Positions 4,640-56,908 of a stretch of DNA of 64,000 nt are shown in pieces. How positions within the stretch are numbered: position 1 is the stretch's first letter; the number at the start of each line of letters is the position of its first letter. Both the position numbers and the translations under genes were made by a program. Origin of the DNA: Syntrophaceae bacterium (GTDB lineage: Bacteria; Desulfobacterota; Syntrophia; Syntrophales; UBA2185); contig PMBI01000043.1 of the NCBI GenBank assembly GCA_003153775.1, positions 33,851 to 97,850 on the forward strand, given 5' to 3'. Under the pieces are notes generated by a model, which worked only from the letters and a program-made list of their open reading frames with translations, did not search any database and was not told the origin of the DNA.

Positions 4640-5012
4640 TGTCAGACCAGATCATAAGCCGAGTTCTGTCCCGCCTTTCCGTCACCGGAAAGACGGTGAT
4701 GATCATCAATCTGGGACAGCAGTTGCCTGCTGCCTCAAGCGACACTACCCGAGAACGTCAAGCGGGCCACTTTTATTGTTCTCCTATTTGGTCTTGCTCC
4801 GGATGGGGTTTACCAAGCTTTCCCGGTCACCCGGGAAACTGGTGAGCTCTTACCTCGCCTTTTCACCCTTACCTGCCAATGACAGGCGGTATATTTTCTG
4901 TGGCACTTTCCTTAGGGTCGCCCCCAGTCGCCGTTAGCGACCATCCTGCCCTGCGGAGCTCGGACTTTCCTCCAGCCCGGAAGACCGGGCCAGCGATCAT
5001 CTGATCTGCTCC
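4640..5012 (-). ncRNA. rnpB: RNase P RNA, bacterial type A
   Basis: The reverse complement contains the universally conserved blocks GGAGGAAAGTCCGAGCTCC, GGTAAGGGTGAAAAGG, GGTAAACCCCATCCGGAGCAAGACCAAATAGG and ACAGAACTCGGCTTA. A P1 helix can form between CAGATCA near the 5' end and TGATCTG near the 3' end. The ends are approximate, +/-5 nt. Confidence 0.9.
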
Positions 5013-6662: not shown

Positions 6663-6738
6663 TGGTGGGCCCACCTGGGTTCGAACCAGGGACCTACCGG
6701 TTATGAGCCGGTGGCTCTTCCAATTGAGCTATGGGCCC
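6663..6738 (-). tRNA. tRNA with CAU anticodon (elongator Met or lysidine-modified Ile2; not initiator), CCA encoded
   Basis: A 76-nt cloverleaf was folded by hand: acceptor GGGCCCA/TGGGCCC, D arm GCTC..GAGC, anticodon stem ACCGG/CCGGT with loop CTCATAA, and T arm CCTGG-TTCGAAC-CCAGG. The G1-C72 pair and the lack of a 3xGC anticodon stem argue against fMet. Confidence 0.92.
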
Positions 6739-8617: not shown

Positions 8618-10399
8618 TCACAACGACGTCTTTTCTTCTTTCTGCAATGTTTGCAGCTCTTCCAAGAGCCTTGCCCACAGCTCTTGATTATCGTTCTCCT
8701 CGGCCTTCTTTATTTTCGTCTTCAAGACCCGGCATCTTTCCTTGTACCACTTCCGTTTAATCTGTTTCATCGCATCCGCAGTCACGCGGTCAATTAGCTT
8801 TTCATCGTAAGGATTCTCGTCTATCATCATGCGAAGAAGCTTCTTCTTTATAAACTCGTTATCAATCGCCTGTATGAACTGTGATGCATCAAAGCCTTTT
8901 GCTCCTTCCTTTGCATAATAATCCGTTAGCTTCAGGGCGAGAGATTTCAGATTCACGCTCATAAAGCAATCAAAGATATTTTTTTTGGCAATTTCAGGAA
9001 CCATGGAAGGAAATTCGAGCATGATGTGGATAATACTCAGCTCCACCGCGTCGATTTCCATCTCAGGTTCTCTTGAAACATCTGCCTTCTTTGGAGGAGC
9101 AGCCTTCAGGACTATATTGACCTCTTTTGTCAGAAGCTCTTGATCCAGACCTATTTTCTCCGATACCCTTTTTATGAATAGATCCCTCTCTCTTGTATTA
9201 TCGATATGGATAATAAAAGACACGGCTTCCTTCAGGGCATCTCTCTTTTCTTCATAGGTCGCGACTCTCCCGATAACATTCTCGATATAGTAATCTACCA
9301 GGGACCCGGCTTTATCGATGATTTCCATAAATGCTTCTTTTCCGTGCGTCCTCAAATATTGATCAGGATCATAGCCATCCGGAAGTACAACGCCCTTTGC
9401 ATGCATATTCCCGGAAAGAAATAATTCTATGCTCCTCGTCAGTGCCTTCTTCCCGGCTTCATCAGGATCAAACACTACCGCGACGTGCGAAGTATAGCGC
9501 CGTATTAGATCGACATGATCTCGCGTCAGAGCGGTCCCGAGTGTGGCGATAACATTCCTGACGCCGGAAGCCCACAAGGTGATTAAATCAAAATATCCTT
9601 CTACGAGGATGGCATAACCTTCCTTGCGGATGTCTTCTTTCGTACGGTTGAGGCCGTAGAGATTCCTTCCCTTGATGTATACGGGCGATTCCGAAGTATT
9701 CAGATACTTCGGTTCCCCGCTACCTATAATCCTGCCGCCGAAGGCAATGACACTGTCGCCGATGTCCTGTATGGGGAACATTAACCTCCCCCTGAACCGG
9801 TCGTAAAAAGATCCACCCCCGTTCGCCTTTGGAATGACCAGTCCCGACTGTTCAACAAGCTTCAAGGGTATGCCCGCCTTTTCGAAATGGTCCCTCAGAT
9901 GCCTCCATCCATCAAGGGCATATCCAAGGCCGAATTCCTTGATTACGTCATCCTGTATCCCCCTTTTTCTCAGGTAGTCTCGCGCCTCTTTGCCCGCCTG
10001 CGAAAATAGGTTCTTGGAGAAATACGCCGCCGCCATCTTGTTGACACGGCCGACATCGTTCCTGACGCTAAATGACTCCTTCTCTTCGCGGGTCAACACC
10101 CTCTCAGGGATGATAACCCCCGTCTTACCCGCCAGATGCCTTACCGCCTCAGGAAAAGACATATCACTCATCTTCATCAGAAATGTCAGAACATTGCCTC
10201 CCTCACCGCATCCGAAACAGTAGAATATCTGCTTGTCCCGATTCACCGTAAAGGAAGGCGTTTTCTCCTTGTGAAAAGGGCAGAGTCCGAGAAAGTTTTT
10301 CCCTCCCTTTTTGAGCGTGACATATTCGGAAACCAGATCAACGATATCCGCCCTTCTTTTTACCTCTTCTATTTTATCCGGAGGAATATGTCCTTTCAC
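8618..10399 (-). CDS. dnaG: DNA primase
   Basis: It has the zinc-binding motif CPFHKEKTPSFTV...YCFGCGEGGN and the Toprim motifs EGYFD and DPDEAG. The length is 593 aa. Confidence 0.93.
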   Translation of the reverse strand: MKGHIPPDKIEEVKRRADIVDLVSEYVTLKKGGKNFLGLCPFHKEKTPSFTVNRDKQIFYCFGCGEGGNVLTFLMKMSDMSFPEAVRHLAGKTGVIIPERVLTREEKESFSVRNDVGRVNKMAAAYFSKNLFSQAGKEARDYLRKRGIQDDVIKEFGLGYALDGWRHLRDHFEKAGIPLKLVEQSGLVIPKANGGGSFYDRFRGRLMFPIQDIGDSVIAFGGRIIGSGEPKYLNTSESPVYIKGRNLYGLNRTKEDIRKEGYAILVEGYFDLITLWASGVRNVIATLGTALTRDHVDLIRRYTSHVAVVFDPDEAGKKALTRSIELFLSGNMHAKGVVLPDGYDPDQYLRTHGKEAFMEIIDKAGSLVDYYIENVIGRVATYEEKRDALKEAVSFIIHIDNTRERDLFIKRVSEKIGLDQELLTKEVNIVLKAAPPKKADVSREPEMEIDAVELSIIHIMLEFPSMVPEIAKKNIFDCFMSVNLKSLALKLTDYYAKEGAKGFDASQFIQAIDNEFIKKKLLRMMIDENPYDEKLIDRVTADAMKQIKRKWYKERCRVLKTKIKKAEENDNQELWARLLEELQTLQKEEKTSL

Positions 10400-10724
10400 T
10401 GCCTCCTGCCTCTATCCTTTCAGGACAAGAACATAGACGCCGATAAATCGCCAAAAGGGGCGGAGGTATCAGGTCTTCTTACAAGAAGTTCCGAGTGGCA
10501 AATCATAGGCCGGGAGCACTTCCAATGGGTCTGCCCGTACGGCGGGAGAAAGGGCGCAATGCAGAATAATTTCTACCTTGCCCGGGAGTTCATCTATCTT
10601 CAATTTTCTCGATGACTGATATGAATTCAGCCCCTTATCCCCCTATACTGAAAAGGGAGGGGTACTTATCGTAGCACTAACCTCTATGCAGAGACCTTCC
10701 CAAATTCATAAAATATATGTCCGA

Positions 10725-42209: not shown

Positions 42210-43574
42210 TCATTCTTTTAGGCCGTATTTTTTAAGTTTGTAGCGCAGCATGCGCTCGCTGATGCCGAGGATTTCGGCGGCCTTTGTCTGATGATCGCCT
42301 GACTTCTCCATGGCCTCGAGAATCAATTTGCGTTCCATTTCTTCAATTGATCCCCGCAGCAAACCCTCTCCCTTTTTCCCTGCATCTTCAGGATAGATCC
42401 TGTCTTCGTCGAATGGCAGGTCATCTATGGAGATGACCGAATTTCGGGATATCACCACAGCGCGTTCAATGATATTTTCCAGTTCCCTGACATTGCCCGG
42501 ATAATCATATTTCAAAAGCAGGTCCCTCGCTTCGCTGGTTATACCCGTCACGGTTTTGCCGTTGTCCGCGGCAAAGCGTTTGAGGAAGTGATCTATGAGC
42601 GGGGGTACGTCTTCCTTTCTCTCTCTCAGGGGGGGTATGTCCATCACAACCACGTTCAACCTGTAGAATAGGTCTTCCCTGAATGTTCCCTCTTTGACCT
42701 TGGATTCCAGATCGCGATTGGTTGCACTGATAATCCGCACATCGGAGTGGATGGTCTGATTGCCGCCCACACGCTGGAATTCGCGCTCCTGCAAAAAGCG
42801 AAGTAATTTTACCTGGACGGAAGTGGTTATATCGCCAATCTCGTCCAAGAAGAGGGTCCCGCCGTCGGCTTCCTCAAATCTGCCAATCCTTCTCGCCGTT
42901 GCACCTGTGAATGCCCCTTTTTCATGACCGAAGAGCTCGCTCTCCAAGAGGCTCTCCGGGAGTGCGCTGCAGTTTACCACACTGATCAGTTTTGCTGAAC
43001 GGGGGCTGAGATTGTGGATCAACCTGGCCAGCAATTCCTTGCCCGTTCCGCTTTCTCCCTTGATAAGAACAGTGGCGCGGCTCACTGCGATTCTGCTCGC
43101 CATATTGATCAGGACATCCATTTTATGACTCTGATAAATGATCTTGTCCATGGTGACGCCCTTCTCCGAGAGTTCCTGACGGAGAATCTCATTTTCACGG
43201 ATCAGGGTACGCCGCTCTGATACTCGATCCACGTGGATCAGGAGTTCATCGAATTCAACAGGTTTTGTAATATAGTCTATGGCGCCGGCTTTCATGGCGT
43301 CCACTGCCGTTTCTATCGTTCCGTATGCGGTAATGATAATCACGTCGATTTCCGGATTGATTTTCTTCACCTCTTTGAGGACCTGCATGCCATCCATGCC
43401 CGGCATCTTGTAATCCAGGAGGATCATATCAAAATGACCCTTTAAAACGGACTGGATGGCGGTGTCTCCATTCTCAGCCTCCGCTACACTATGTCCTTCT
43501 CTGACGAGAAAATCGCGGAGCATCTCTCGCTGGGACTGGCCATCCTCGACCACGAGTATGTTTAACTTCTTCAT
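42210..43574 (-). CDS. sigma54-dependent response regulator (NtrC family enhancer-binding protein)
   Basis: The REC domain has ILVVEDG...DMILLDYKMPGMDG. The AAA+ domain has GESGTGKE and the sigma54-contact motif GAFTGA. The C-terminal Fis-type HTH is AAEILGISERMLRYKLKKYGL. Confidence 0.92.
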   Translation of the reverse strand: MKKLNILVVEDGQSQREMLRDFLVREGHSVAEAENGDTAIQSVLKGHFDMILLDYKMPGMDGMQVLKEVKKINPEIDVIIITAYGTIETAVDAMKAGAIDYITKPVEFDELLIHVDRVSERRTLIRENEILRQELSEKGVTMDKIIYQSHKMDVLINMASRIAVSRATVLIKGESGTGKELLARLIHNLSPRSAKLISVVNCSALPESLLESELFGHEKGAFTGATARRIGRFEEADGGTLFLDEIGDITTSVQVKLLRFLQEREFQRVGGNQTIHSDVRIISATNRDLESKVKEGTFREDLFYRLNVVVMDIPPLRERKEDVPPLIDHFLKRFAADNGKTVTGITSEARDLLLKYDYPGNVRELENIIERAVVISRNSVISIDDLPFDEDRIYPEDAGKKGEGLLRGSIEEMERKLILEAMEKSGDHQTKAAEILGISERMLRYKLKKYGLKE

Positions 43575-43586
43575 GCCTGAATTCCT

Positions 43587-45374
43587 TTAGACCGTGCCAT
43601 TCTTCTCTCCCACCCTTCCTGCAGGCAGTGATATCTCGAAGGTCGTCCCCGAACCCGGCTGACTTAAAACACGAATCTCTCCCCCGTGACCGCGGATAAT
43701 CTCATGTGCAAGGGGAAGTCCGAGACCCAATCCCTTTTCCTTCGTCGTATATTCAGGATTGAAAATGCGCTCTATCTCTTCAGGGTCCATACCGCATCCA
43801 TCATCGGAAATTTTTATTATGACCCGGTCCTTTCCGCTCGAATCAACGACAATACGGACGGTGCCCTCACCGGAAATGGATTCCATGGCATTCTTTACGA
43901 AATTAAAAATGGCCTGCTGCAGTTTGTCTACGTCCATGGGAATAATTGCATGGTTATCTTTGTACCTGGTATCCAATGTGATCCCTTTTAATTTTGCCTC
44001 TTCCTGAATGAGATTGACAATCTTTTGAAGAACCTCTGCAACAGGATATTCGTGCAGCTCCAAACGCCGGCTCTTTGAGAACGTCAGAAATTCTTCGATA
44101 ATTCCATCCAAACGTCGGATTTCATCACGGATCACACCGGCCAGTGTCTGGAACTCCTTGATCTTGTCCTCATCAGCCGGCATGAACTCCCGCTTCAGTC
44201 TCTGACTGGCCATACTTATGGCATTAAGGGGATTGCGAATCTCATGAGCGACACCTGCGGCGAGCTGCCCAAGGGCAGATAACCTCTCGGCTTTCTCGAG
44301 CTGTCTTTCCATCTCCACAATTCCTGCCAGATGCCTGTTCTGATTGTGATAGAGTATCCACATCGCCAAGAGCGTAATCAAGATTACAGAGGACATAAAG
44401 AAGATCATATTACGCTTGTTCTCAGCAAGGATTTCATCCGTTCCCTCGCGATCAAGACCAAGCCTCGCGACCCCTGCCACCTTGCCGAACAGGTATATGG
44501 GTGCAGCCATCTCCAGAACTTTCTTGTCATGGGAAACAATCTTCCGGCTTTCAAATTTCTTTGTACCGGCAAGGATTTCATCAATACGCATCTTGCCTTG
44601 TTCATCTTTATCAGGTGCCTGCCCCGAACTGCCAAGGATCATGTCACGCTGATCCATGATCTTAATATAGACCAAACCCTGTCCCTGCCCCAATCTCTCC
44701 AGGGCCTTTTCTATGGATACCTTAATGCCCCAATATCTTTGCCCGTCGCGATCCAGAGCGATAATGACTGTCCCGCTCCCATCCGTTCGCCGTAATGCTA
44801 CAAAACCGATCTTCTTGTCCTTGCCAAGCCTTGAGAAAAGATCAATGGTGATGGCGTCTCTTCCCAAAACCCTGTCCGCATCTCCGCCAATGAGGTCCGC
44901 ATGCAGAGCCCTGCTCTGGTAGACGACCTTTCCCCTTCTATCCAAGACGGCCACAAACCATAGACCCTTCTCTTCGGCAAATTTTCCCAGATATTCGTCG
45001 CTCAGGTGATGCGCCTTCCATTGATTATCAATTTCGCGTCCCATATCCACAAGGGCAGCTGTTAGTGACTTCTGCGGTAATAAGGCCTCATCAACAGGGG
45101 GAGCAAAGGTACCGCCGCTATCCCTCTGATAAGCCTGAATCAGCGCATTGAGGTTTTCCTGGGCAAGCCTCTCAACAACCCCGATTATGGCCAGGCCCTG
45201 GCTCTCCATGAAACCCATAAGGCTCCTGTCGCTTCGCCGGATGTCCATGATCCCCATGATCAGAATAAGACAGATGAAGACGGTACAGACAATCGTAACG
45301 GCGATGGGCTGCAAGAAACGCCGGCCATAGTCGGGAGCGCGGTGCTGCCATATAACTTTATTCTGTGCCTTCAT
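43587..45374 (-). CDS. sensor histidine kinase
   Basis: There are two TM segments flanking a ~270-aa sensor domain. The H-box is HEIRNPLNAI, the N-box is NFVKNAMES, and the G-boxes are DDGCGM and GLGLGLPLAHEII. Confidence 0.9.
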   Translation of the reverse strand: MKAQNKVIWQHRAPDYGRRFLQPIAVTIVCTVFICLILIMGIMDIRRSDRSLMGFMESQGLAIIGVVERLAQENLNALIQAYQRDSGGTFAPPVDEALLPQKSLTAALVDMGREIDNQWKAHHLSDEYLGKFAEEKGLWFVAVLDRRGKVVYQSRALHADLIGGDADRVLGRDAITIDLFSRLGKDKKIGFVALRRTDGSGTVIIALDRDGQRYWGIKVSIEKALERLGQGQGLVYIKIMDQRDMILGSSGQAPDKDEQGKMRIDEILAGTKKFESRKIVSHDKKVLEMAAPIYLFGKVAGVARLGLDREGTDEILAENKRNMIFFMSSVILITLLAMWILYHNQNRHLAGIVEMERQLEKAERLSALGQLAAGVAHEIRNPLNAISMASQRLKREFMPADEDKIKEFQTLAGVIRDEIRRLDGIIEEFLTFSKSRRLELHEYPVAEVLQKIVNLIQEEAKLKGITLDTRYKDNHAIIPMDVDKLQQAIFNFVKNAMESISGEGTVRIVVDSSGKDRVIIKISDDGCGMDPEEIERIFNPEYTTKEKGLGLGLPLAHEIIRGHGGEIRVLSQPGSGTTFEISLPAGRVGEKNGTV

Positions 45375-45747
45375 CTACCAATACCCATGCAACTCTTCGT
45401 ATATATTATACTTTATATCTACAACCCCGATTCGTCGCCGCTAAAGGGAAGCAGCGCTTATACTGTCTTTTAGAGGTGTGCCATCATATTTCATCGGCAT
45501 GAAAAGTCAACGAATTCTTTCCCCTAAAATTGCAGAATGGACTGAAAAAATCCGACAATTATGTCGATCCCAAAAACAATTGACGTTCATCTCTTAAGTA
45601 GTTGTTTTTTCAAGCGCTATAACCATTTACCAGCAACCCTCATCGACATTTATTGCCCTTTCCTTTCTTCCGGCGGCCACGCCATTTACCTCAGACATAC
45701 CCCATTAGTTACGTAATATAAATGACTTACACGCATTTGCCGGATCA

Positions 45748-45764
45748 TGGCATGACCTATGCAT
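45748..45764 (+). promoter_or_regulatory. candidate sigma54 (-24/-12) promoter
   Basis: TGGCATGACCTATGCAT has GG at 45749-50 and GC at 45761-62. That is the same spacing as the consensus TGGCACG-N4-TTGCW. Confidence 0.55.
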
Positions 45765-45773
45765 CCTCAAAGC

Positions 45774-45899
45774 ATAACAACAAGTTAATTATCGGTTAAT
45801 AACGGGCATGATTGGCCGGTAGTAAACTCCAAAACTAAGAAGGTAAACACCTTCACTCCTCCTGACCTTGGGGAGACTTCAAGTCTCCCCTTTTTTTTT
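45774..45899 (+). ncRNA. candidate sigma54-dependent small RNA (~125 nt)
   Basis: The predicted start lies ~12 nt after the -12 GC. No RBS-preceded ORF follows. An internal CU-rich anti-SD-like motif CACTCCTCCTGA is at 45854-45865. The element ends in GGGGAGAC-TTCAA-GTCTCCCC (45870-45890) plus T9 (45891-45899). The boundaries are predicted only. Confidence 0.45.
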
Positions 45900-47243
45900 G
45901 CCTTGTTCATGCGCTGACTCTCGCAACTTCCGCCATTTCTCGATTCTATCTTTGATGATCTTCTCATGTCCCCTCGCTGTGGGCCTGTAATAAACCTCTC
46001 CCATGAGTTCGTCCGGCAGATAGTCCTGGGGGACATAGGCATCCTCAAATTCATGGGCGTACTGATAGCCCTTGCCGTAACCAAGATCCTTCATCAAACG
46101 CGTCGGGGCATTCCTTATATGGAGCGGCACGGCGAGGGTGCCGGTTTCGCTTATCCTTTCTTTGACCTTGCCGTAAGCAATATAAAGTGAATTGCTCTTC
46201 GGGGCAGTAGCAAGGTAAACGGCGGCCTGGGCGAGGGCAAGTTCCCCTTCAGGAAGACCGATAAAATGAAATGCCTGCATGGCTGAAACTGAGATTCCGA
46301 GAGCCGCAGGCTCGGCGTTGCCAACATCCTCCGAAGCGAATCTCACCATGCGCCTGGCTATGTAGAGGGGGTCTTCGCCGGCGGCAAGCATGCGGCCCAG
46401 CCAGTAGAGGGCGGCGTCCGGGTCACTGCCACGAAGGCTCTTGTGAAAAGCTGAGATGAGATTGTAGTGTTCCTCACCTCCCTTGTCATACTGCAACGCC
46501 TTCTTCTGGAGGGCTTCCTCCACCACGGCGCGAGTAATTTTTCTTGCGCCCGTCTCCTCTTTTCGCAGGAGAGACGCTGCCGCCTCAAGGCTGTTCAAGG
46601 CCATGCGGGCGTCTCCGTCGGCCGACCAGATTATATGCTCAACCGCGTCCGGTTCTGTCTCGAAAGCAAGGTCTCCTAAGCCCTTTTCTTTGTTATGCAC
46701 GGCCCGGTTGATAATAACCGCCAGTTCGCTGTCTGAATAGGGCTTCAGCAGCATGACCCGCGTCCTGGACAGGAGCGGCGAAATCACTTCAAAGGAGGGA
46801 TTTTCCGTAGTCGCACCAATGAGTGTAATGAGGCCTTTTTCGACATGGGGCAAGAAAGCGTCCTGCTGTGCCTTGTTGAATCTGTGGATTTCATCTACGA
46901 AGAGGATCGTTTTCTTGCGGTGGTAACGCCATTGGGATTGCGCTTCATCAACAACAGCCCGGATCTCTTTGACGCCCGAAAGGACAGCGGAGAAACTCAC
47001 AAAATGGGATTTTGTTTCATGGGCGATGACGCGGGCCAGGGTGGTCTTCCCCGAGCCGGGCGGTCCCCAGAAGATCATCGAAAAAAGCCTGTCTTCTTCA
47101 ATGGCTCGCCGAAGAAGGCTGCCCGGGCCCAAGAGGTGTGACTGCCCGACGAATTCGTTGAGAGCCCGGGGGCGCATCTTATCTGCCAGGGGACTGAGAT
47201 CGATGTCGGTGTCTTTCTGATCAAAGAGATCCATAATAATCAC
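45879..47243 (-). CDS. rarA: replication-associated recombination protein A (AAA+ ATPase RarA/MgsA)
   Basis: FWGPPGSGKTTLA, ILFVDEIHRFNK, LIGATTENPSFE and the C-terminal MgsA domain (YDKGGEEHYNLISAFHKSLRGSD) are present. Confidence 0.92.
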   Translation of the reverse strand: MIIMDLFDQKDTDIDLSPLADKMRPRALNEFVGQSHLLGPGSLLRRAIEEDRLFSMIFWGPPGSGKTTLARVIAHETKSHFVSFSAVLSGVKEIRAVVDEAQSQWRYHRKKTILFVDEIHRFNKAQQDAFLPHVEKGLITLIGATTENPSFEVISPLLSRTRVMLLKPYSDSELAVIINRAVHNKEKGLGDLAFETEPDAVEHIIWSADGDARMALNSLEAAASLLRKEETGARKITRAVVEEALQKKALQYDKGGEEHYNLISAFHKSLRGSDPDAALYWLGRMLAAGEDPLYIARRMVRFASEDVGNAEPAALGISVSAMQAFHFIGLPEGELALAQAAVYLATAPKSNSLYIAYGKVKERISETGTLAVPLHIRNAPTRLMKDLGYGKGYQYAHEFEDAYVPQDYLPDELMGEVYYRPTARGHEKIIKDRIEKWRKLRESAHEQGKKKGET

Positions 47244-53445: not shown

Positions 53446-54140
53446 CGCGGCCGCTCTCTCTGCTGTATCTGGGTCAGGATGGCATTGATGAAGAAGGCGA
53501 GGAGCAGCAGGATGATCCCGAGGGCCATGGCGATATCAAAATTGCCTTTGCTTGTTTCCATGACCGTCGCCGTGGTCAGGACGCGCGTGTATCCCTTGAT
53601 ATTTCCACCGACCATGATGGAAGCTCCGACTTCAGAGATGACGCCGCCGAACCCTGCCATGATGGCCGCCAGGAGCGGGAGGCGGGCCTCCTTAATAAGA
53701 ATCCACACCATCTGAAGACGTGTTGCACCGAGGGCTAGGATCTGCAATCTGAGGTTAGCGGGAAGATTCTGTATGGCAGCAAGGCTTATGCCCATCACTA
53801 TGGGTGTAGCAATAACGGCCTGCGCAATGATGATGGCAGTTGGCGTGTAGAGGATCTCGAGAAAACCGAGAGGTCCGTTTCGCCAGAGGAAGATAGTAAC
53901 AAAGAGACCCACCACCACCGGAGGCAGGCCCATCCCCGTATTGATCAGGCTGATGACAATCCTACGCCCGGGAAACTGGGTAAGGGCGATGATGGTCCCT
54001 ACTGATACCCCGATCAGCAGGCTGATAAGCGTCGCTATCCCGGACACCTTAAGGGAAAGCCAAGTAATGCCTATGACTTCAGGATCGAGAGTGAAGAGAA
54101 GAATAAAGGCCTGTTTTATTCCTTCGATAATGATGTCCAT
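53442..54140 (-). CDS. tupB: tungstate ABC transporter permease
   Basis: This 232-aa five- or six-TM permease carries an EAA-like loop (ALGATRLQMVWILIKEARLPLL). Its end overlaps the tupC start. Confidence 0.8.
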   Translation of the reverse strand: MDIIIEGIKQAFILLFTLDPEVIGITWLSLKVSGIATLISLLIGVSVGTIIALTQFPGRRIVISLINTGMGLPPVVVGLFVTIFLWRNGPLGFLEILYTPTAIIIAQAVIATPIVMGISLAAIQNLPANLRLQILALGATRLQMVWILIKEARLPLLAAIMAGFGGVISEVGASIMVGGNIKGYTRVLTTATVMETSKGNFDIAMALGIILLLLAFFINAILTQIQQRERPR

Positions 54141-54185: not shown

Positions 54186-55055
54186 TCATTTGCCGAGAGC
54201 GTCTTCTTTCTTGCCGGCATCCGGGAAGAACAAGGGCGAACCATATTTCTCCACACCGAATTTTCTGATAATATCCTGAGTCTGCCTCCCGACCATGAAA
54301 TCGGAAAATGCTTTTGCACCGGCGCTGTTCACCTTGGGCCATTTGGTAGGATTAACCTCGATGACATGGTAGATATTGAGAAGGACGGCATCCCCTTCCG
54401 CCAGGATATCGAGGCCGAGATTTTTCTTCAAAGCCAGATACGTTCCCCGGTCCGCAAGGGTATATGTTTTTTTCTCGGCGGCGACATTCAGCGTCTGTCC
54501 CATTCCGAGGCCTGTCTGTTGGTACCACTTTTGTCCTTCCGAGTTTATCCCCGCAGCCTTCCAGACGGACTTTTCTTTCGCATGGGTTCCCGAATTGTCT
54601 CCACGTGACATAAAGACGGCATTTGCGGAAGCAATCTTCCTGAAGGCATCAATAGACGACCTTGATCCCTTGATCCCCGCCGGGTCTGACTTCGGTCCCA
54701 AAATAATAAAATCATTATGCATGACGAGCCTTCTATTGACGCCATAACCATCCGCCATGAACTTCTTCTCCGCTTCCTGCGAATGAACCAGGAGCACATC
54801 TGCTTCTCCCTTTTGGCCCATGGCCATCGCCTGGCCGGAGCCCACGGCAATGGTCTTGACAAAATAGCCGGTTGTCTTTTCAAAGATGGGCAAGAGGACA
54901 TCCAGAAGACCCGAGTCCTGGGTGCTCGTGGTTGTTGCAAGAATAATATTTTTCTGCTGAGGCTGCGCAGCAATTGCAGGCAACGCACAGAATACAACGG
55001 ACATGACGGATATGATCAGTGCAATCAAACAAGTGCGATCAAGTCTTTTCATCAT
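54186..55055 (-). CDS. tupA: tungstate ABC transporter substrate-binding protein
   Basis: It has a signal peptide. The TupA anion-binding motif is LATTTSTQDSGLL, followed by GSGQAMAMG and RGDNSGTH. Confidence 0.82.
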   Translation of the reverse strand: MMKRLDRTCLIALIISVMSVVFCALPAIAAQPQQKNIILATTTSTQDSGLLDVLLPIFEKTTGYFVKTIAVGSGQAMAMGQKGEADVLLVHSQEAEKKFMADGYGVNRRLVMHNDFIILGPKSDPAGIKGSRSSIDAFRKIASANAVFMSRGDNSGTHAKEKSVWKAAGINSEGQKWYQQTGLGMGQTLNVAAEKKTYTLADRGTYLALKKNLGLDILAEGDAVLLNIYHVIEVNPTKWPKVNSAGAKAFSDFMVGRQTQDIIRKFGVEKYGSPLFFPDAGKKEDALGK

Positions 55056-55987: not shown

Positions 55988-56908
55988 TCAGTCTTGTGTT
56001 GAATACAAGACTTTCCCTGAGTCCTTAAAGTCGTACCCGCCCAGCTTTTCGACGCGCCTCCGAAAATCCCTTGACTTGAGAACCTCCATGAGGGCCTGGA
56101 CGCCCTTGGTAAAAAAAGTCGATTGCTCGAGGATCATATCGAAGTTCTCCCGCGTAATGGGAACAAAAGAAAGACCCAGGAGTTTAGCCACGGGAGCGGT
56201 TGCTATGCCTGCATCAGCTTCCTTTGACAGAACAGCAAGACCCACTTCGAAATGCGTAAAGACCTCCATATCGTAGCCGGAGATATTACGGCTCGAAATA
56301 CCCATATTGTCCATATGGTAATCAAGAAGAACCCGTGTTCCGGATCCCTTCTGCCGGTTCACAATTTTCACCCCTTTTTTCGCGAGATCGGCAAAGCCGC
56401 TGATATGCAAAGGGTTGCCATGAGCCGCGATCAATCCCACCTCTCTGTGGAAGAGGTTGACTACCACGGCTTTTATATTAGGCAGGTACGCAGACAGATA
56501 AGGAATATTGTACCGGCCGCTTTTCGCGTCAAGCAGGTGGGACCAGGCAATGTCGGTAAAACCCATATTGAGGGCCTTAAGTCCCTCTGTGCTGCCTGTA
56601 TTTGCAGAAAAGATATAAAAATCGGGGTGACGCTTTTTTATGTAAGTTTGCAGCATGTCGAGGATGGGATCGTTGCTTCCCGATGCCAGGAGCCCCCCTT
56701 CTATCCGCCTGCTCTTCTTTCTTGCCTGTTTGACCCCTTGCTTCGCATTCACTTCAATCCATTCATCAATTAATCTCTTAGGGAATATCCACTTTCCCGT
56801 GACCCTGGTGGCAGGAATCCTTCCGGATTTGGTGAGGCTGTATACCTGTTTTTCATGAATATCGAGGTAGCGGGCCACCTCCTTGGTGTTCATCACTTCC
56901 TCTGACAT
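55988..56908 (-). CDS. excisionase/MerR-type HTH fused to periplasmic-binding-protein-like domain (TunR-like tungstate/molybdate-responsive regulator)
   Basis: The N-terminus, MNTKEVARYLDIHEKQVYSLTKSGRIPATRVTGKWIFPKRLIDEWI, is an excisionase-family HTH. The rest is PBP-like. As far as I recall, this architecture and genomic context match the TunR family described in sulfate reducers. Confidence 0.65.
   Translation of the reverse strand: MSEEVMNTKEVARYLDIHEKQVYSLTKSGRIPATRVTGKWIFPKRLIDEWIEVNAKQGVKQARKKSRRIEGGLLASGSNDPILDMLQTYIKKRHPDFYIFSANTGSTEGLKALNMGFTDIAWSHLLDAKSGRYNIPYLSAYLPNIKAVVVNLFHREVGLIAAHGNPLHISGFADLAKKGVKIVNRQKGSGTRVLLDYHMDNMGISSRNISGYDMEVFTHFEVGLAVLSKEADAGIATAPVAKLLGLSFVPITRENFDMILEQSTFFTKGVQALMEVLKSRDFRRRVEKLGGYDFKDSGKVLYSTQD

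What the first reader, a model, noticed from the sequence alone, without database searches (positions are those of the whole stretch)
45553..45899. Candidate sigma54-dependent small RNA divergent from an NtrC-type two-component operon
In the 504-bp gap between the histidine kinase start (45374, minus strand) and the rarA stop, the plus strand carries TGGCATGACCTATGCAT (45748-45764). Its GG and GC dinucleotides have exactly the spacing of the sigma54 consensus TGGCACG-N4-TTGCW. No ORF with an RBS follows; the only ATG gives a 4-codon frame.

About 95 nt downstream lies one of the strongest terminators in the window: GGGGAGAC-TTCAA-GTCTCCCC followed by nine T (45870-45899). The predicted ~125-nt RNA contains a small hairpin (AAGGT-AAAC-ACCTT). 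Just before the terminator it has a single-stranded CU-rich stretch, CACUCCUCCUGA (45854-45865), complementary to Shine-Dalgarno sequences (GGAGG). That is the typical seed of translation-blocking sRNAs.

The adjacent operon encodes a sensor kinase and a sigma54 enhancer-binding response regulator with a GAFTGA motif. A perfect palindrome, CGACAATTATGTCG (45553-45566), lies ~190 bp upstream of the -24/-12 element and is a plausible activator site. The layout parallels known EBP-controlled sRNAs such as LuxO-Qrr in Vibrio. The last 21 nt of the RNA are also antisense to the rarA 3' end.
Basis: partly seen in the sequence, partly recalled or inferred. Interest (0 to 1): 0.65.

Follow-up and report, generated by a model that had tools for sequence, protein, structure and literature searches.

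The report
Sigma-54 small RNA beside Zra-like kinase
This is very likely a real, previously uncatalogued small regulatory RNA of Syntrophales bacteria, switched on by the neighbouring sensor-kinase/regulator pair through a sigma-54 promoter, and it sits where related bacteria encode a periplasmic stress protein.

Summary
The sigma-54 motif alone is no better than chance in this window (4 matches against 3.4 expected). Comparative evidence makes the case.

In 17 non-redundant Syntrophales loci, found through the orthologous histidine kinase (50-97% identity), the same module lies divergent from the kinase-regulator operon:
- a palindrome TCGACA-N4-TGTCGA about 190 nt upstream of the -24 element;
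- a weaker second site about 100 nt upstream;
- an IHF-like site;
- TGGCAY-N7-TGC;
- a 105-131 nt non-coding RNA ending in a strong intrinsic terminator.

The RNA has an A-rich 5' end. It also has an optional second hairpin and a single-stranded CCUCCUG. No Rfam family or paper describes it.

In more distant orthologous loci the same palindrome and promoter drive a secreted LTXXQ protein (ZraP/CpxP/Spy family). The RNA therefore occupies the zraP slot of a Zra-like system.

Transcription, targets and mechanism remain untested. I infer translation block by pairing to Shine-Dalgarno sequences. This is a new member of a known kind, the enhancer-binding-protein-controlled small RNAs.

The parts
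45774..45899 (+). Predicted small RNA of about 120-126 nt. The start is inferred 12 nt after the -12 GC, and the end lies in the U-run.
   Evidence: MFE -38.9 kcal/mol, z = -4.5. Homologues occur in 17 Syntrophales loci. The covariance model scores them at 62-127 bits, including held-out L099 and L008. No Rfam family matches.
45774..45782 (+). A-rich single-stranded 5' leader (AUAACAACA), with ARN-like repeats.
   Evidence: Unpaired in the MFE structure. The A-rich composition is kept in all members although the sequence varies. A role in Hfq binding is inference only.
45783..45828 (+). Stem-loop 1. The core stem is AUCGGUUAA/UUGGCCGGU. The loop AACGGGCAUG lies at 45801-45810, and GGGCAUG is invariant in it.
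   Evidence: Invariant columns G31-G33, C34, U36 and G37. Compensatory changes include AU to GC in 4 sequences at columns 28/48 and in 2 sequences at columns 21/55.
45839..45854 (+). Stem-loop 2 (GAAGGU-AAAC-ACCUUC), an optional module.
   Evidence: Present in the window, L003, L010, L011, L013, L095-98 and L103. Absent in L005, L006, L028, L099 and L102, and replaced in L004. On the minus strand its complement followed by UUAGUUUUGG scores as a weak terminator-like site for rarA.
45854..45865 (+). Single-stranded CU-rich candidate seed CACUCCUCCUGA. The core CCUCCUG lies at 45858-45864 and is complementary to Shine-Dalgarno sequences.
   Evidence: Unpaired in the MFE structure. CCUCCUG is exact in 12 of 17 members, and CU-rich variants occur in L007, L010, L011 and L013; the truncated L008 is identical to L013 where it overlaps. 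In L103 the motif moves to the terminator loop.
45870..45899 (+). Intrinsic terminator GGGGAGAC-UUCAA-GUCUCCCC followed by U9. It overlaps the last 7 codons of rarA on the other strand.
   Evidence: One search finds 9 pairs, 6 of them G-C, with a T9 tail. In the alignment 96.7% of cells are paired and 5 of 8 pairs show changes on both sides. The terminator is retained where rarA is absent or distant.
45748..45763 (+). Sigma-54 promoter, -24 TGGCAT and -12 ATGCA.
   Evidence: TGGCAY-N7-TGC[AT] lies at the equivalent place in 16 of 17 small-RNA loci and in the LTXXQ-type loci. It is a fully conserved block in the intergenic alignment.
45717..45729 (.). IHF-like site TATAAATGACTTA (consensus WATCAANNNNTTR) between the activator sites and the promoter.
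   Evidence: A partly conserved block in the 9-locus intergenic alignment. L095 and L098 match the consensus exactly. The assignment rests on consensus only.
45643..45657 (.). Proximal activator site, half-palindromic (TCGACATTTATTGCC), about 104 nt upstream of the -24 T.
   Evidence: CGACATT is invariant in the 9-locus alignment. Sites scoring 8-9 of 10 lie 99-103 nt upstream in L025, L028, L095 and L102.
45551..45568 (.). Distal activator site. It is a perfect palindrome, CGACA-ATTA-TGTCG, within TCCGACAATTATGTCGAT, 195 nt upstream of the -24 T.
   Evidence: Palindromes matching 9-10 of 10 positions lie 188-195 nt upstream in most loci, 167 nt in L009 and L020, and 133-218 nt in distant LTXXQ-type loci. 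It is the only match with one mismatch or fewer in the window.
45483..45510 (-). Sigma-70-type promoter of the kinase-regulator operon (TTGACT-16-TATGAT).
   Evidence: Matches 10 of 12 positions. Both hexamers fall in conserved blocks of the intergenic alignment.
43587..45374 (-). Sensor histidine kinase, 595 aa. It has an N-terminal transmembrane segment, an extracytoplasmic sCache-like domain, HisKA and HATPase_c.
   Evidence: The best named relatives are AtoS and ZraS, both below the equivalog cut-offs.
42210..43574 (-). NtrC-type response regulator and sigma-54 activator, 454 aa, with GAFTGA at residue 220 and a C-terminal HTH_8 domain.
   Evidence: The best named relatives are AtoC and ZraR, both below the equivalog cut-offs.
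45879..47243 (-). rarA/mgsA, a convergent neighbour. It is not part of the module, but its 3' end overlaps the RNA terminator.

Best explanation
The 504-nt gap holds a stand-alone gene for a small RNA of about 125 nt, written here as the output of the adjacent two-component system.

Proposed mechanism. The membrane kinase (43587-45374) senses an extracytoplasmic signal and phosphorylates the NtrC-type regulator (42210-43574). The regulator binds the palindrome TCGACA-N4-TGTCGA about 195 nt upstream of the -24 element and a weaker site about 104 nt upstream. With DNA bending at an IHF-like site, it activates sigma-54 RNA polymerase at TGGCAT-N7-TGCA. Transcription starts near 45774 and stops at the intrinsic terminator (45870-45899). 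The kinase-regulator operon has its own conserved sigma-70-type promoter.

The RNA has an A-rich 5' end and a conserved, covarying stem-loop that presents GGGCAUG. It also has an optional second hairpin, a single-stranded CCUCCUG and a U-tailed terminator. It most likely acts in trans. It would pair its CCUCCUG stretch, possibly together with the GGGCAUG loop, to ribosome-binding sites of target mRNAs. That would block translation.

Context. In more distant relatives the same activator sites and promoter drive a secreted LTXXQ protein of the ZraP/CpxP/Spy family. The RNA is therefore probably the non-coding output of a Zra-like envelope or metal stress response.

Shown here: the conservation, covariation and geometry of the sites, promoter and RNA, the absence of a coding frame, and the identity of the neighbouring proteins.

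Inferred only: transcription itself, its dependence on sigma-54 and the regulator, the pairing mechanism, the targets and the physiological signal.
For: Coordinates are verified.

Unbiased sampling. Loci were collected through the kinase protein, not the RNA.
- 17 non-redundant Syntrophales loci carry the module divergent from the kinase.
- The palindrome lies 188-195 nt upstream of the -24 element in nearly all of them.
- The intergenic alignment shows that only the sigma-70 promoter, both activator sites, the IHF-like block, the -24/-12 element and the RNA are conserved.

Structure.
- RNAalifold finds 9 of 19 pairs with compensatory changes.
- 86% of cells are paired, against 31-50% when the partners are slid.
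- 11 pairs change on both sides, against 3-4 in the slid controls, and 0 of 500 shuffles reach the observed values.
- The window RNA folds with z = -4.5.
- The covariance model finds held-out L099 (79 bits), L008 (62 bits) and the diverged L007 (42 bits), with one copy per locus.

Link to rarA. The RNA and its terminator persist without an adjacent rarA.

Link to LTXXQ proteins. Distant orthologous loci use the same sites and promoter for signal-peptide LTXXQ/Metal_resist proteins.

Precedent. NtrC-type regulators of Desulfovibrio vulgaris have adjacent sigma-54-dependent non-coding RNAs, and a divergent zraP beside zraSR has been mapped there (PMC3333781, PMC4641369).
Against: There are no expression data of any kind.

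The promoter motif alone is at chance level in this window, and its -12 element reads ATGCA, not the consensus TTGCA.

Targets could not be predicted specifically. An anti-Shine-Dalgarno seed matches many ribosome-binding sites. The best in-window duplex is with the dnaG start region at -25.9 kcal/mol. It is unvalidated and may be chance.

The kinase start region has no conserved complementarity to the RNA.

Three members replace CCUCCUG with other CU-rich strings.

The invariant GGGCAUG loop is unexplained. It could be the true seed or a protein-binding site.

The kinase and regulator fall below the equivalog cut-offs for ZraS/ZraR and AtoS/AtoC. The palindrome also differs from the D. vulgaris ZraR site GTATA-N5-TATAC. 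'Zra-like' therefore rests on gene arrangement, not on orthology.
Confidence: 0.75

Rival explanations
1. The RNA is what remains of a zraP/cpxP-like gene. An ancestral LTXXQ mRNA carried a CpxQ-like regulatory RNA in its 3' UTR. The coding part was then deleted, which fused the sigma-54 promoter and leader to the last codons and the 3' UTR. The RNA is still functional. This concerns origin and complements the main explanation rather than excluding it.
For: The RNA occupies exactly the slot of the LTXXQ gene in distant orthologous loci, with the same sites and promoter.

The only non-family covariance-model hits lie at the last codons plus 3' UTR of sigma-54-driven LTXXQ genes:
- L104 scores 36.5 bits, E = 7e-7.
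- L053 scores 23 bits.
- Each reads ...CCGGUGGUAA-(A)CU.AAAC...CCUCCU...GGGAGAGCC hairpin-U-run.

The sequence TGGCC---GGTAGTAAACT--AAAAC of the RNA aligns with the end of the L053 gene, TGGCCCCAGGTGGTAAACTAAAAC, which encodes ...G-P-R-W-stop. The 4-codon frame M-I-G-R-stop would then be the relic of that C-terminus.
Against: A sequence-only profile gives only E = 0.0027 for L104 and 0.042 for L053, and finds nothing once the terminator columns are removed.

Pairwise scores without the terminator are p about 0.007 for L053 and 0.14 for L104.

L053 and L104 are homologues of each other, so they count as one observation. Other LTXXQ 3' UTRs show no similarity (L014, L016-18, L021, L025, L105-107).

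Stem-loop 1 has no counterpart in those genes.
Confidence: 0.25
2. The RNA is real and regulator-dependent but does not act by anti-Shine-Dalgarno pairing. The invariant GGGCAUG loop of stem-loop 1 would be the functional site. It would serve either as a seed for other targets or as a binding site that titrates a protein.
For: GGGCAUG is more strictly conserved than CCUCCUG. It is invariant in 15 of 16 aligned members, whereas CCUCCUG is replaced in L010, L011 and L013. Conserved hairpin loops are common seeds.
Against: CCUCCUG is kept single-stranded across changes of context, as in L103. The different RNAs that follow the same promoter in L009 and L020 present a CU-rich CCUG motif (CCUCCUG twice in L009; CCUCCUG and CUCCUG in L020) in two hairpin loops and lack the GGGCAUG loop. 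There is only one copy of each motif, unlike protein-sponge RNAs.
Confidence: 0.15
3. The transcript acts in cis as an antisense regulator of rarA, or the hairpin is merely the rarA terminator and the promoter match is chance.
For: In the window the last 21 nt of the RNA overlap the rarA 3' end. rarA is the convergent neighbour in most RNA loci. The promoter motif alone is not significant.
Against: The U-run follows the hairpin only on the plus strand. The overlap is not conserved:
- rarA ends 20-120 nt short of the RNA in L004, L010, L011 and L013.
- It ends about 750 nt away in L006.
- It is absent in L005.

The RNA and its terminator are nevertheless retained in all of these. The promoter, the activator sites and stem-loop 1 are conserved with covariation.
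Confidence: 0.03
4. The region is a decaying pseudogene or a leader remnant that is transcribed without function, or it encodes a micro-peptide (M-I-G-R).
For: A short frame starting at the loop AUG exists in all members. It has 4-6 codons in six of the seven members read and is longer in L028 (sequences).
Against: Conservation follows RNA pairing rather than codons, with compensatory stem changes. No Shine-Dalgarno sequence lies at a usable distance from the AUG. The peptide length and sequence vary. The element is maintained across kinase divergence down to about 50% identity.
Confidence: 0.03

Closest known systems
Non-coding RNAs linked to NtrC-type regulators in Desulfovibrio vulgaris Hildenborough (DVU0679 with Dv-sRNA2; also DVU0653, DVU1419, DVU2359). 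Sources: Rajeev et al. 2011, PMC3333781; Kazakov et al. 2015, PMC4641369.
   Same: An NtrC-type two-component regulator in a former deltaproteobacterium has as its target a small RNA next to its own gene. That RNA is driven by a sigma-54 promoter with palindromic sites upstream. One such regulator, DVU1419, is assigned to envelope stress.
   Different: The binding motifs differ: CGTGCG-N4-CGCACG and TGTGCA-N6-TGCACA there, TCGACA-N4-TGTCGA here. The order (Syntrophales) and the gene neighbourhood also differ.
ZraPSR of Escherichia coli and the mapped zraP/zraSR locus of D. vulgaris (DVU3381-DVU3384)
   Same: A periplasm-sensing kinase and a sigma-54 activator are transcribed divergently from their single main target, with shared palindromic sites between them. 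In distant orthologues of this kinase the target is a ZraP-like LTXXQ protein. The E. coli arrangement is cited from established knowledge.
   Different: Here the target is a non-coding RNA. The kinase and regulator score below the ZraS/ZraR equivalog cut-offs and score higher with AtoS/AtoC. The D. vulgaris ZraR site is GTATA-N5-TATAC. The kinase operon here has a sigma-70-type promoter.
LuxO-Qrr of Vibrio
   Same: An NtrC-type regulator activates sigma-54 transcription of a roughly 100-nt trans-acting RNA encoded next to and divergent from the regulator locus. The RNA has several hairpins and an intrinsic terminator (established knowledge; PMC10162802 appears).
   Different: No Rfam match to Qrr was found. 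The seed differs, the copy number is one, the sensory input differs, and no Hfq or target information exists.
GlrKR (QseEF)-GlmY of Enterobacteriaceae
   Same: A small RNA gene lies directly upstream of and divergent from a kinase/sigma-54-regulator operon, with activator sites and an IHF site, and is tied to cell-envelope homeostasis (established knowledge; PMC3045617 appears).
   Different: GlmY is a protein decoy for RapZ, not an anti-Shine-Dalgarno RNA. There is no sequence or structure match.
CpxQ, a small RNA processed from the 3' UTR of cpxP in Salmonella and E. coli
   Same: It is the non-coding arm of an envelope stress two-component system and is physically tied to an LTXXQ-family gene. 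The 3' UTRs of the L053 and L104 LTXXQ genes carry a CCUCCU-plus-terminator module resembling the 3' half of this RNA. Knowledge of CpxQ itself is from memory, not tested here.
   Different: The window RNA is a primary transcript with its own sigma-54 promoter and no upstream coding region. Homology to the 3' UTR modules is only suggestive. CpxR is an OmpR-type, sigma-70 regulator.
Alphaproteobacterial anti-Shine-Dalgarno RNAs (SorY RF02651; mmgR/suhB RF00519)
   Same: The 3' module of hairpin, CUCCUCC and terminator gives weak Rfam alignments, 22.7 and 17.5 bits.
   Different: These scores are far below the gathering scores of 111 and 41. The resemblance is confined to the generic seed-plus-terminator layout.

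Membership tests
Sigma-54 (RpoN)-dependent promoter with enhancer | GG and GC dinucleotides 12 nt apart, matching TGGCAC-N5-TTGCW | tested here: met
   TGGCATGACCTATGCA at 45748-45763. The motif is conserved as TGGCAY-N7-TGC[AT] in 16 of 17 RNA loci and in LTXXQ-type loci.
Sigma-54 (RpoN)-dependent promoter with enhancer | Binding sites for a cognate enhancer-binding protein about 80-200 nt upstream, and a cognate activator gene | tested here: met
   Conserved palindromes lie about 190 and about 100 nt upstream of the -24 element. The adjacent regulator has a Sigma54_activat domain, GAFTGA and HTH_8. Actual binding was not tested.
Sigma-54 (RpoN)-dependent promoter with enhancer | Transcription requires RpoN and ATP hydrolysis by the activator | not testable with these tools
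   This needs genetics or in vitro transcription.
Trans-acting base-pairing small RNA (Hfq type) | Independent non-coding transcription unit with its own promoter and an intrinsic terminator with a U-tail | tested here: met
   There is no ORF of 30 aa or more, and only a 4-codon frame.
Trans-acting base-pairing small RNA (Hfq type) | Conserved single-stranded seed | tested here: met
   CCUCCUG is exact in 12 of 17 members and unpaired in every context. The GGGCAUG loop is invariant.
Trans-acting base-pairing small RNA (Hfq type) | Demonstrated target pairing and chaperone dependence | not testable with these tools
   Only a 64-kb window was available. The in-window scan gave no validated target.
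Structured RNA family (evolutionary test) | Compensatory base changes that support the helices | tested here: met
   11 of 25 pairs change on both sides, against 3-4 in the slid controls, and 0 of 500 shuffles reach this.
Any Rfam 15 family (Qrr, GlmY/GlmZ, SorY, mmgR and others) | Score at or above the family's gathering threshold | tested here: not met
   The locus has no hit in the window or in 14 related loci. The best sub-threshold hit is SorY at 22.7 bits against 111.
ZraPSR envelope stress system | Kinase and regulator orthologous to ZraS and ZraR | tested here: not met
   The ZraR model scores 466 bits against a cut-off of 760, and ZraS scores 211 against 479. AtoC and AtoS score higher but also fall below their cut-offs.
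ZraPSR envelope stress system | Divergent sigma-54-dependent target gene that shares the regulator's binding sites | tested here: met
ZraPSR envelope stress system | The target encodes a periplasmic LTXXQ protein of the ZraP family | tested here: not met
   The window has no ORF in that slot. The feature is met only in distant orthologous loci, namely L014-L018, L021 and L025. In L099 and L012 an LTXXQ gene lies in the operon with the kinase.
3' UTR-derived small RNA (CpxQ type) | Released from the 3' end of a protein-coding mRNA | tested here: not met
   The window RNA has its own promoter and no upstream coding region. A similar 3' module follows LTXXQ genes in L053 and L104.

The most novel reading that the evidence does not exclude
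In one Syntrophales lineage the protein output of a Zra/Cpx-like envelope stress system, an LTXXQ chaperone gene, was converted into an RNA output. Most of the coding region was deleted. That left the sigma-54 promoter and activator sites fused to the last codons and a CpxQ-like 3' UTR regulator, which now functions as a primary small RNA. This would be a documented case of a stand-alone small RNA born from a 3' UTR RNA by gene loss. It would also show that Zra-like systems have a conserved anti-Shine-Dalgarno RNA arm.
Probability: 0.2. Interest if true: 0.75.

Novelty: new member of a known kind. Interest (0 to 1): 0.55.

Why it matters
Few sigma-54-dependent small RNAs are known; examples are Qrr, GlmY/GlmZ, NrsZ and a few predicted in Desulfovibrio. 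None has been described in Syntrophales, the syntrophic fatty-acid and aromatic degraders that are central to methanogenic carbon turnover. The source genome assembly here is GCA_003154275.1, annotated as a Syntrophales metagenome-assembled genome.

This locus offers a complete and directly testable circuit: sensor, activator, binding site, promoter and RNA. The binding-site consensus is defined, and a covariance model is available to annotate related genomes.

The same regulatory slot holds a ZraP/CpxP-like chaperone gene in related orders. The locus therefore provides a natural comparison of protein and RNA outputs of one stress pathway. It may also show how a stand-alone small RNA arises from a gene's 3' end.

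Tried and rejected
1. Metagenome DNA-pattern scan for promoter plus loop. It returned 12 loci, all chance matches inside GC-rich coding sequence.

2. Feedback on the kinase mRNA. The kinase start regions are poorly conserved and show no complementarity to either candidate seed.

3. Target scan over 58 window ORFs.
- The top seed duplex is the dnaG start region (GTG at 10399; AGGCAGGAGGCAGUGAA; -25.9 kcal/mol).
- The top loop duplex lies inside a solute-binding-protein gene.
- Neither could be checked for conservation, so both are treated as possible chance.

4. Experimental support for the palindrome from D. vulgaris. The mapped sites of ZraR (GTATA-N5-TATAC) and DVU1419 (TGTGCA-N6-TGCACA) are different motifs, so no experimental result transfers.

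5. Homology of the RNA to LTXXQ 3' UTRs. The covariance-model hits are encouraging. Sequence-only profiles lose the signal without the terminator, so the idea is kept as a hypothesis only.

6. Second copies. One copy per locus was found, and none elsewhere in the window.

7. The apparent loss of the palindrome in L003 is an NN assembly gap, not a deletion.

8. L100 and L101 carry kinases 62% identical to the window kinase, next to a thiolase gene. They have no site, promoter or RNA. They may be paralogues or have their target elsewhere.
Full report
**Observation**

- TGGCATGACCTATGCAT lies at 45748-45764, with GG and GC 12 nt apart.
- The hairpin GGGGAGAC-TTCAA-GTCTCCCC followed by T9 lies at 45870-45899.
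- The small hairpin is at 45839-45854.
- CACTCCTCCTGA is at 45854-45865.
- The palindrome CGACAATTATGTCG is at 45553-45566.
- The gap between the kinase start (45374, minus strand) and the rarA stop (45879-45881, in the hairpin loop) is 504 nt.
- No plus-strand ORF of 30 aa or more lies between the promoter and the terminator. The only ATG opens a 4-codon frame.

Pfam confirms the neighbouring proteins.
- The kinase has sCache_3_2, HisKA and HATPase_c domains.
- The NtrC-type regulator has a Sigma54_activat domain, GAFTGA at residue 220 and an HTH_8 domain.
- The convergent gene is rarA/mgsA.

Taken alone, the promoter motif is at chance level, with 4 window matches against 3.4 expected at one mismatch. 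The predicted 126-nt RNA folds much better than shuffles, at -38.9 kcal/mol with z = -4.5. The fold has three hairpins.

**Source and relatives**

The kinase sequence is found on a contig of GCA_003154275.1, and its close homologues are annotated as Syntrophales or Syntrophaceae metagenome-assembled genomes. I collected related loci through the kinase protein, so sampling was blind to the non-coding region. This comprised a genome-collection scan with a 13-sequence kinase alignment and exact look-ups of nine further homologues.

**Conservation of the module**

In 17 non-redundant Syntrophales loci (kinase 50-97% identical) the same arrangement lies divergent from the kinase. A TGGCAY-N7-TGC[AT] promoter sits 230-375 nt from the kinase start, or 715 nt in L099 where an LTXXQ gene intervenes. 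It is followed by a 105-131 nt RNA. BLAST had already shown 78-85% identity of the RNA region at kinase identities of only 58-65%.

The palindrome is the sharpest footprint. It matches TCGACA-N4-TGTCGA at 9-10 of 10 positions, 188-195 nt upstream of the -24 T, in nearly all loci. A second, half-degenerate site lies about 100 nt upstream.

A 9-locus alignment of the whole intergenic region shows that only these blocks are conserved:
- a sigma-70-type promoter for the kinase operon (45483-45510, minus strand);
- the two activator sites;
- an IHF-like WATCAANNNNTTR block (45717-45729);
- the -24/-12 element;
- the RNA.

In the window the palindrome is the only match with one mismatch or fewer.

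**Anatomy of the RNA**

The alignment (A2; A3) shows five parts.
- An A-rich 5' leader.
- Stem-loop 1, with an invariant GGGCAUG in the loop.
- An optional stem-loop 2, absent in 5 members.
- A single-stranded CCUCCUG.
- A terminator, GGGGAGAC/GUCUCCCC followed by a U-run.

CCUCCUG is exact in 12 of 17 members, with CU-rich variants in the others. In L103 it sits in the terminator loop.

RNAalifold finds 9 of 19 pairs with compensatory changes. Counting on a specified 25-pair structure gives 86% paired cells against 31-50% for slid partners. It also gives 11 pairs with changes on both sides against 3-4, and 0 of 500 shuffles reach the observed values.

A covariance model built from 15 members recovers held-out L099 (79 bits), the truncated L008 (62 bits) and a diverged copy in L007 (42 bits). 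It finds one copy per locus and none elsewhere in the window.

No Rfam 15 family reaches its threshold in the window or in 14 related loci. The best sub-threshold hits, SorY and mmgR, align only the generic module of hairpin, CUCCUCC and terminator.

**The hairpin is not just the rarA terminator**

The U-run follows the hairpin on the plus strand only. rarA is absent in L005, ends about 750 nt away in L006, and ends 20-120 nt short of the RNA in L004, L010, L011 and L013. The RNA and its terminator are nevertheless kept in all of them. The antisense overlap with rarA is thus a local feature of some loci.

**What the system is**

The best named relatives of the regulator and kinase are AtoC/ZraR and AtoS/ZraS. 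All fall below the equivalog cut-offs.

The orthologous kinase is only 31-40% identical in Desulfobacterales and Syntrophobacterales loci. There the same palindrome and a divergent sigma-54 promoter drive a small secreted protein with Metal_resist and LTXXQ domains, the ZraP/CpxP/Spy family (L014-L018, L021, L025).
- L099 has such a gene in the operon with the kinase and also has the RNA.
- L012 and L015 also have an LTXXQ gene just upstream of the kinase, on the same strand.
- L009 and L020 keep the site and promoter, but a different RNA follows. It presents a CU-rich CCUG motif (CCUCCUG twice in L009; CCUCCUG and CUCCUG in L020) in two hairpin loops.

The RNA therefore occupies the zraP slot of a Zra-like module.

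The literature gives precedent for the kind. NtrC-type regulators of Desulfovibrio vulgaris have adjacent sigma-54-dependent non-coding RNAs, and a divergent zraP beside zraSR has been mapped there (PMC3333781, PMC4641369). Their binding motifs differ from the one here. Full-text searches found nothing on this RNA or on small RNAs in Syntrophus or Smithella.

**Mechanism**

Conservation supports, but does not prove, that the regulator binds the two sites. It would then activate sigma-54 polymerase, with IHF-type bending, to make a primary transcript of about 125 nt.

I infer that the RNA acts in trans by pairing CCUCCUG, and perhaps the GGGCAUG loop, with ribosome-binding regions.

Targets could not be established.
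- The kinase start region shows no complementarity.
- The best in-window duplex, with the dnaG start region, may be chance.

**An unexpected lead**

The only covariance-model hits outside the family lie at the last codons plus 3' UTR of sigma-54-driven LTXXQ genes. L053 scores 23 bits. Its homologue L104 scores 36.5 bits (E = 7e-7 in 24 kb). Both show ...CCGGUGGUAA..AAAC..CCUCCU..hairpin-U-run.

This suggests the RNA may descend from a CpxQ-like 3' UTR module of a zraP-like gene after loss of the coding region. The evidence is weak, however. Sequence-only profiles give E = 0.003-0.04 and nothing without the terminator columns. Pairwise tests are marginal. Other LTXXQ 3' UTRs show no similarity. 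I keep it as a hypothesis with probability of about 0.2-0.25.

**Verdict**

This is a new, uncatalogued family of sigma-54-dependent small RNAs controlled by an adjacent regulator. It is a known kind, but new for Syntrophales and for a Zra-like system. Expression, dependence on the regulator, and targets all need experiments.

Noticed in passing
L053:1585-1695 (+) and L104:3502-3599 (+): The last codons and 3' UTR of sigma-54-driven LTXXQ (Spy/CpxP/ZraP-like) genes carry a single-stranded CCUCCU(CC) stretch directly before a strong terminator. They are the only non-family hits of the RNA covariance model, at 23 and 36.5 bits. They could be CpxQ-like 3' UTR RNAs and possible ancestors of the stand-alone RNA.
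   Followed up: partly
L009 (about 3195-3065, minus strand) and L020 (equivalent region): The same palindrome (167 nt upstream) and sigma-54 promoter are followed by a different RNA with a CU-rich CCUG motif (CCUCCUG twice in L009; CCUCCUG and CUCCUG in L020) in two hairpin loops and no clear U-run terminator. In L009 a lipoprotein-like ORF starts 325 nt after the -24 element, so this may be a long 5' UTR and not a small RNA.
   Followed up: partly
L007:3002-3124 (-): A diverged copy of the RNA scores 41.7 bits. Its -12 element reads TGAA in place of TGC, its loop reads CGGGCAGG, and its upstream palindromes are TGACA-N5/6-TGTCA. It may be a decaying or re-specified member.
   Followed up: partly
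L099:1079-1504 (+); L012 and L015, just upstream of the kinase: An LTXXQ/Metal_resist gene lies on the same strand as the kinase, immediately before or overlapping its start. L099 has both this gene and the divergent small RNA.
   Followed up: partly
window 45483-45510 (-): A sigma-70-type promoter (TTGACT-16-TATGAT) for the kinase-regulator operon is conserved across loci. Unlike E. coli zraSR, as I recall it, the operon itself appears not to depend on sigma-54.
   Followed up: partly
window 10399-10425 (-), start region of dnaG (8618-10399): The ribosome-binding region AGGCAGGAGGCAGUGAA is nearly fully complementary to the RNA stretch UUCACUCCUCCUGACCU (-25.9 kcal/mol). It is the best in-window predicted target, but it was not checked for conservation and may be chance.
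   Followed up: no
window 53778-53793 (-): A second sigma-54-like motif with intact GG and GC (GGGCATAAGCCTTGCT) lies near genes for PBP_like_2 and PBP_like/HTH_17 proteins (54186-55055 and 55988-56908, minus strand). It was not examined.
   Followed up: no
window 4640-5012 (-) and 6666-6738 (-): Bacterial RNase P RNA class A (321 bits) and a tRNA gene. These are ordinary housekeeping RNAs.
   Followed up: no
L003, about 185 nt upstream of the kinase start: An 'NN' assembly gap replaces about 80 nt, including the distal palindrome. The apparent deletion in this 97%-identical relative is an assembly artefact.
   Followed up: yes
L100 and L101: Kinase homologues 62% identical to the window kinase lie directly after a thiolase gene, with a spacer of about 120-145 nt and no palindrome, sigma-54 promoter or RNA. 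They are either paralogues or systems whose target lies elsewhere.
   Followed up: no
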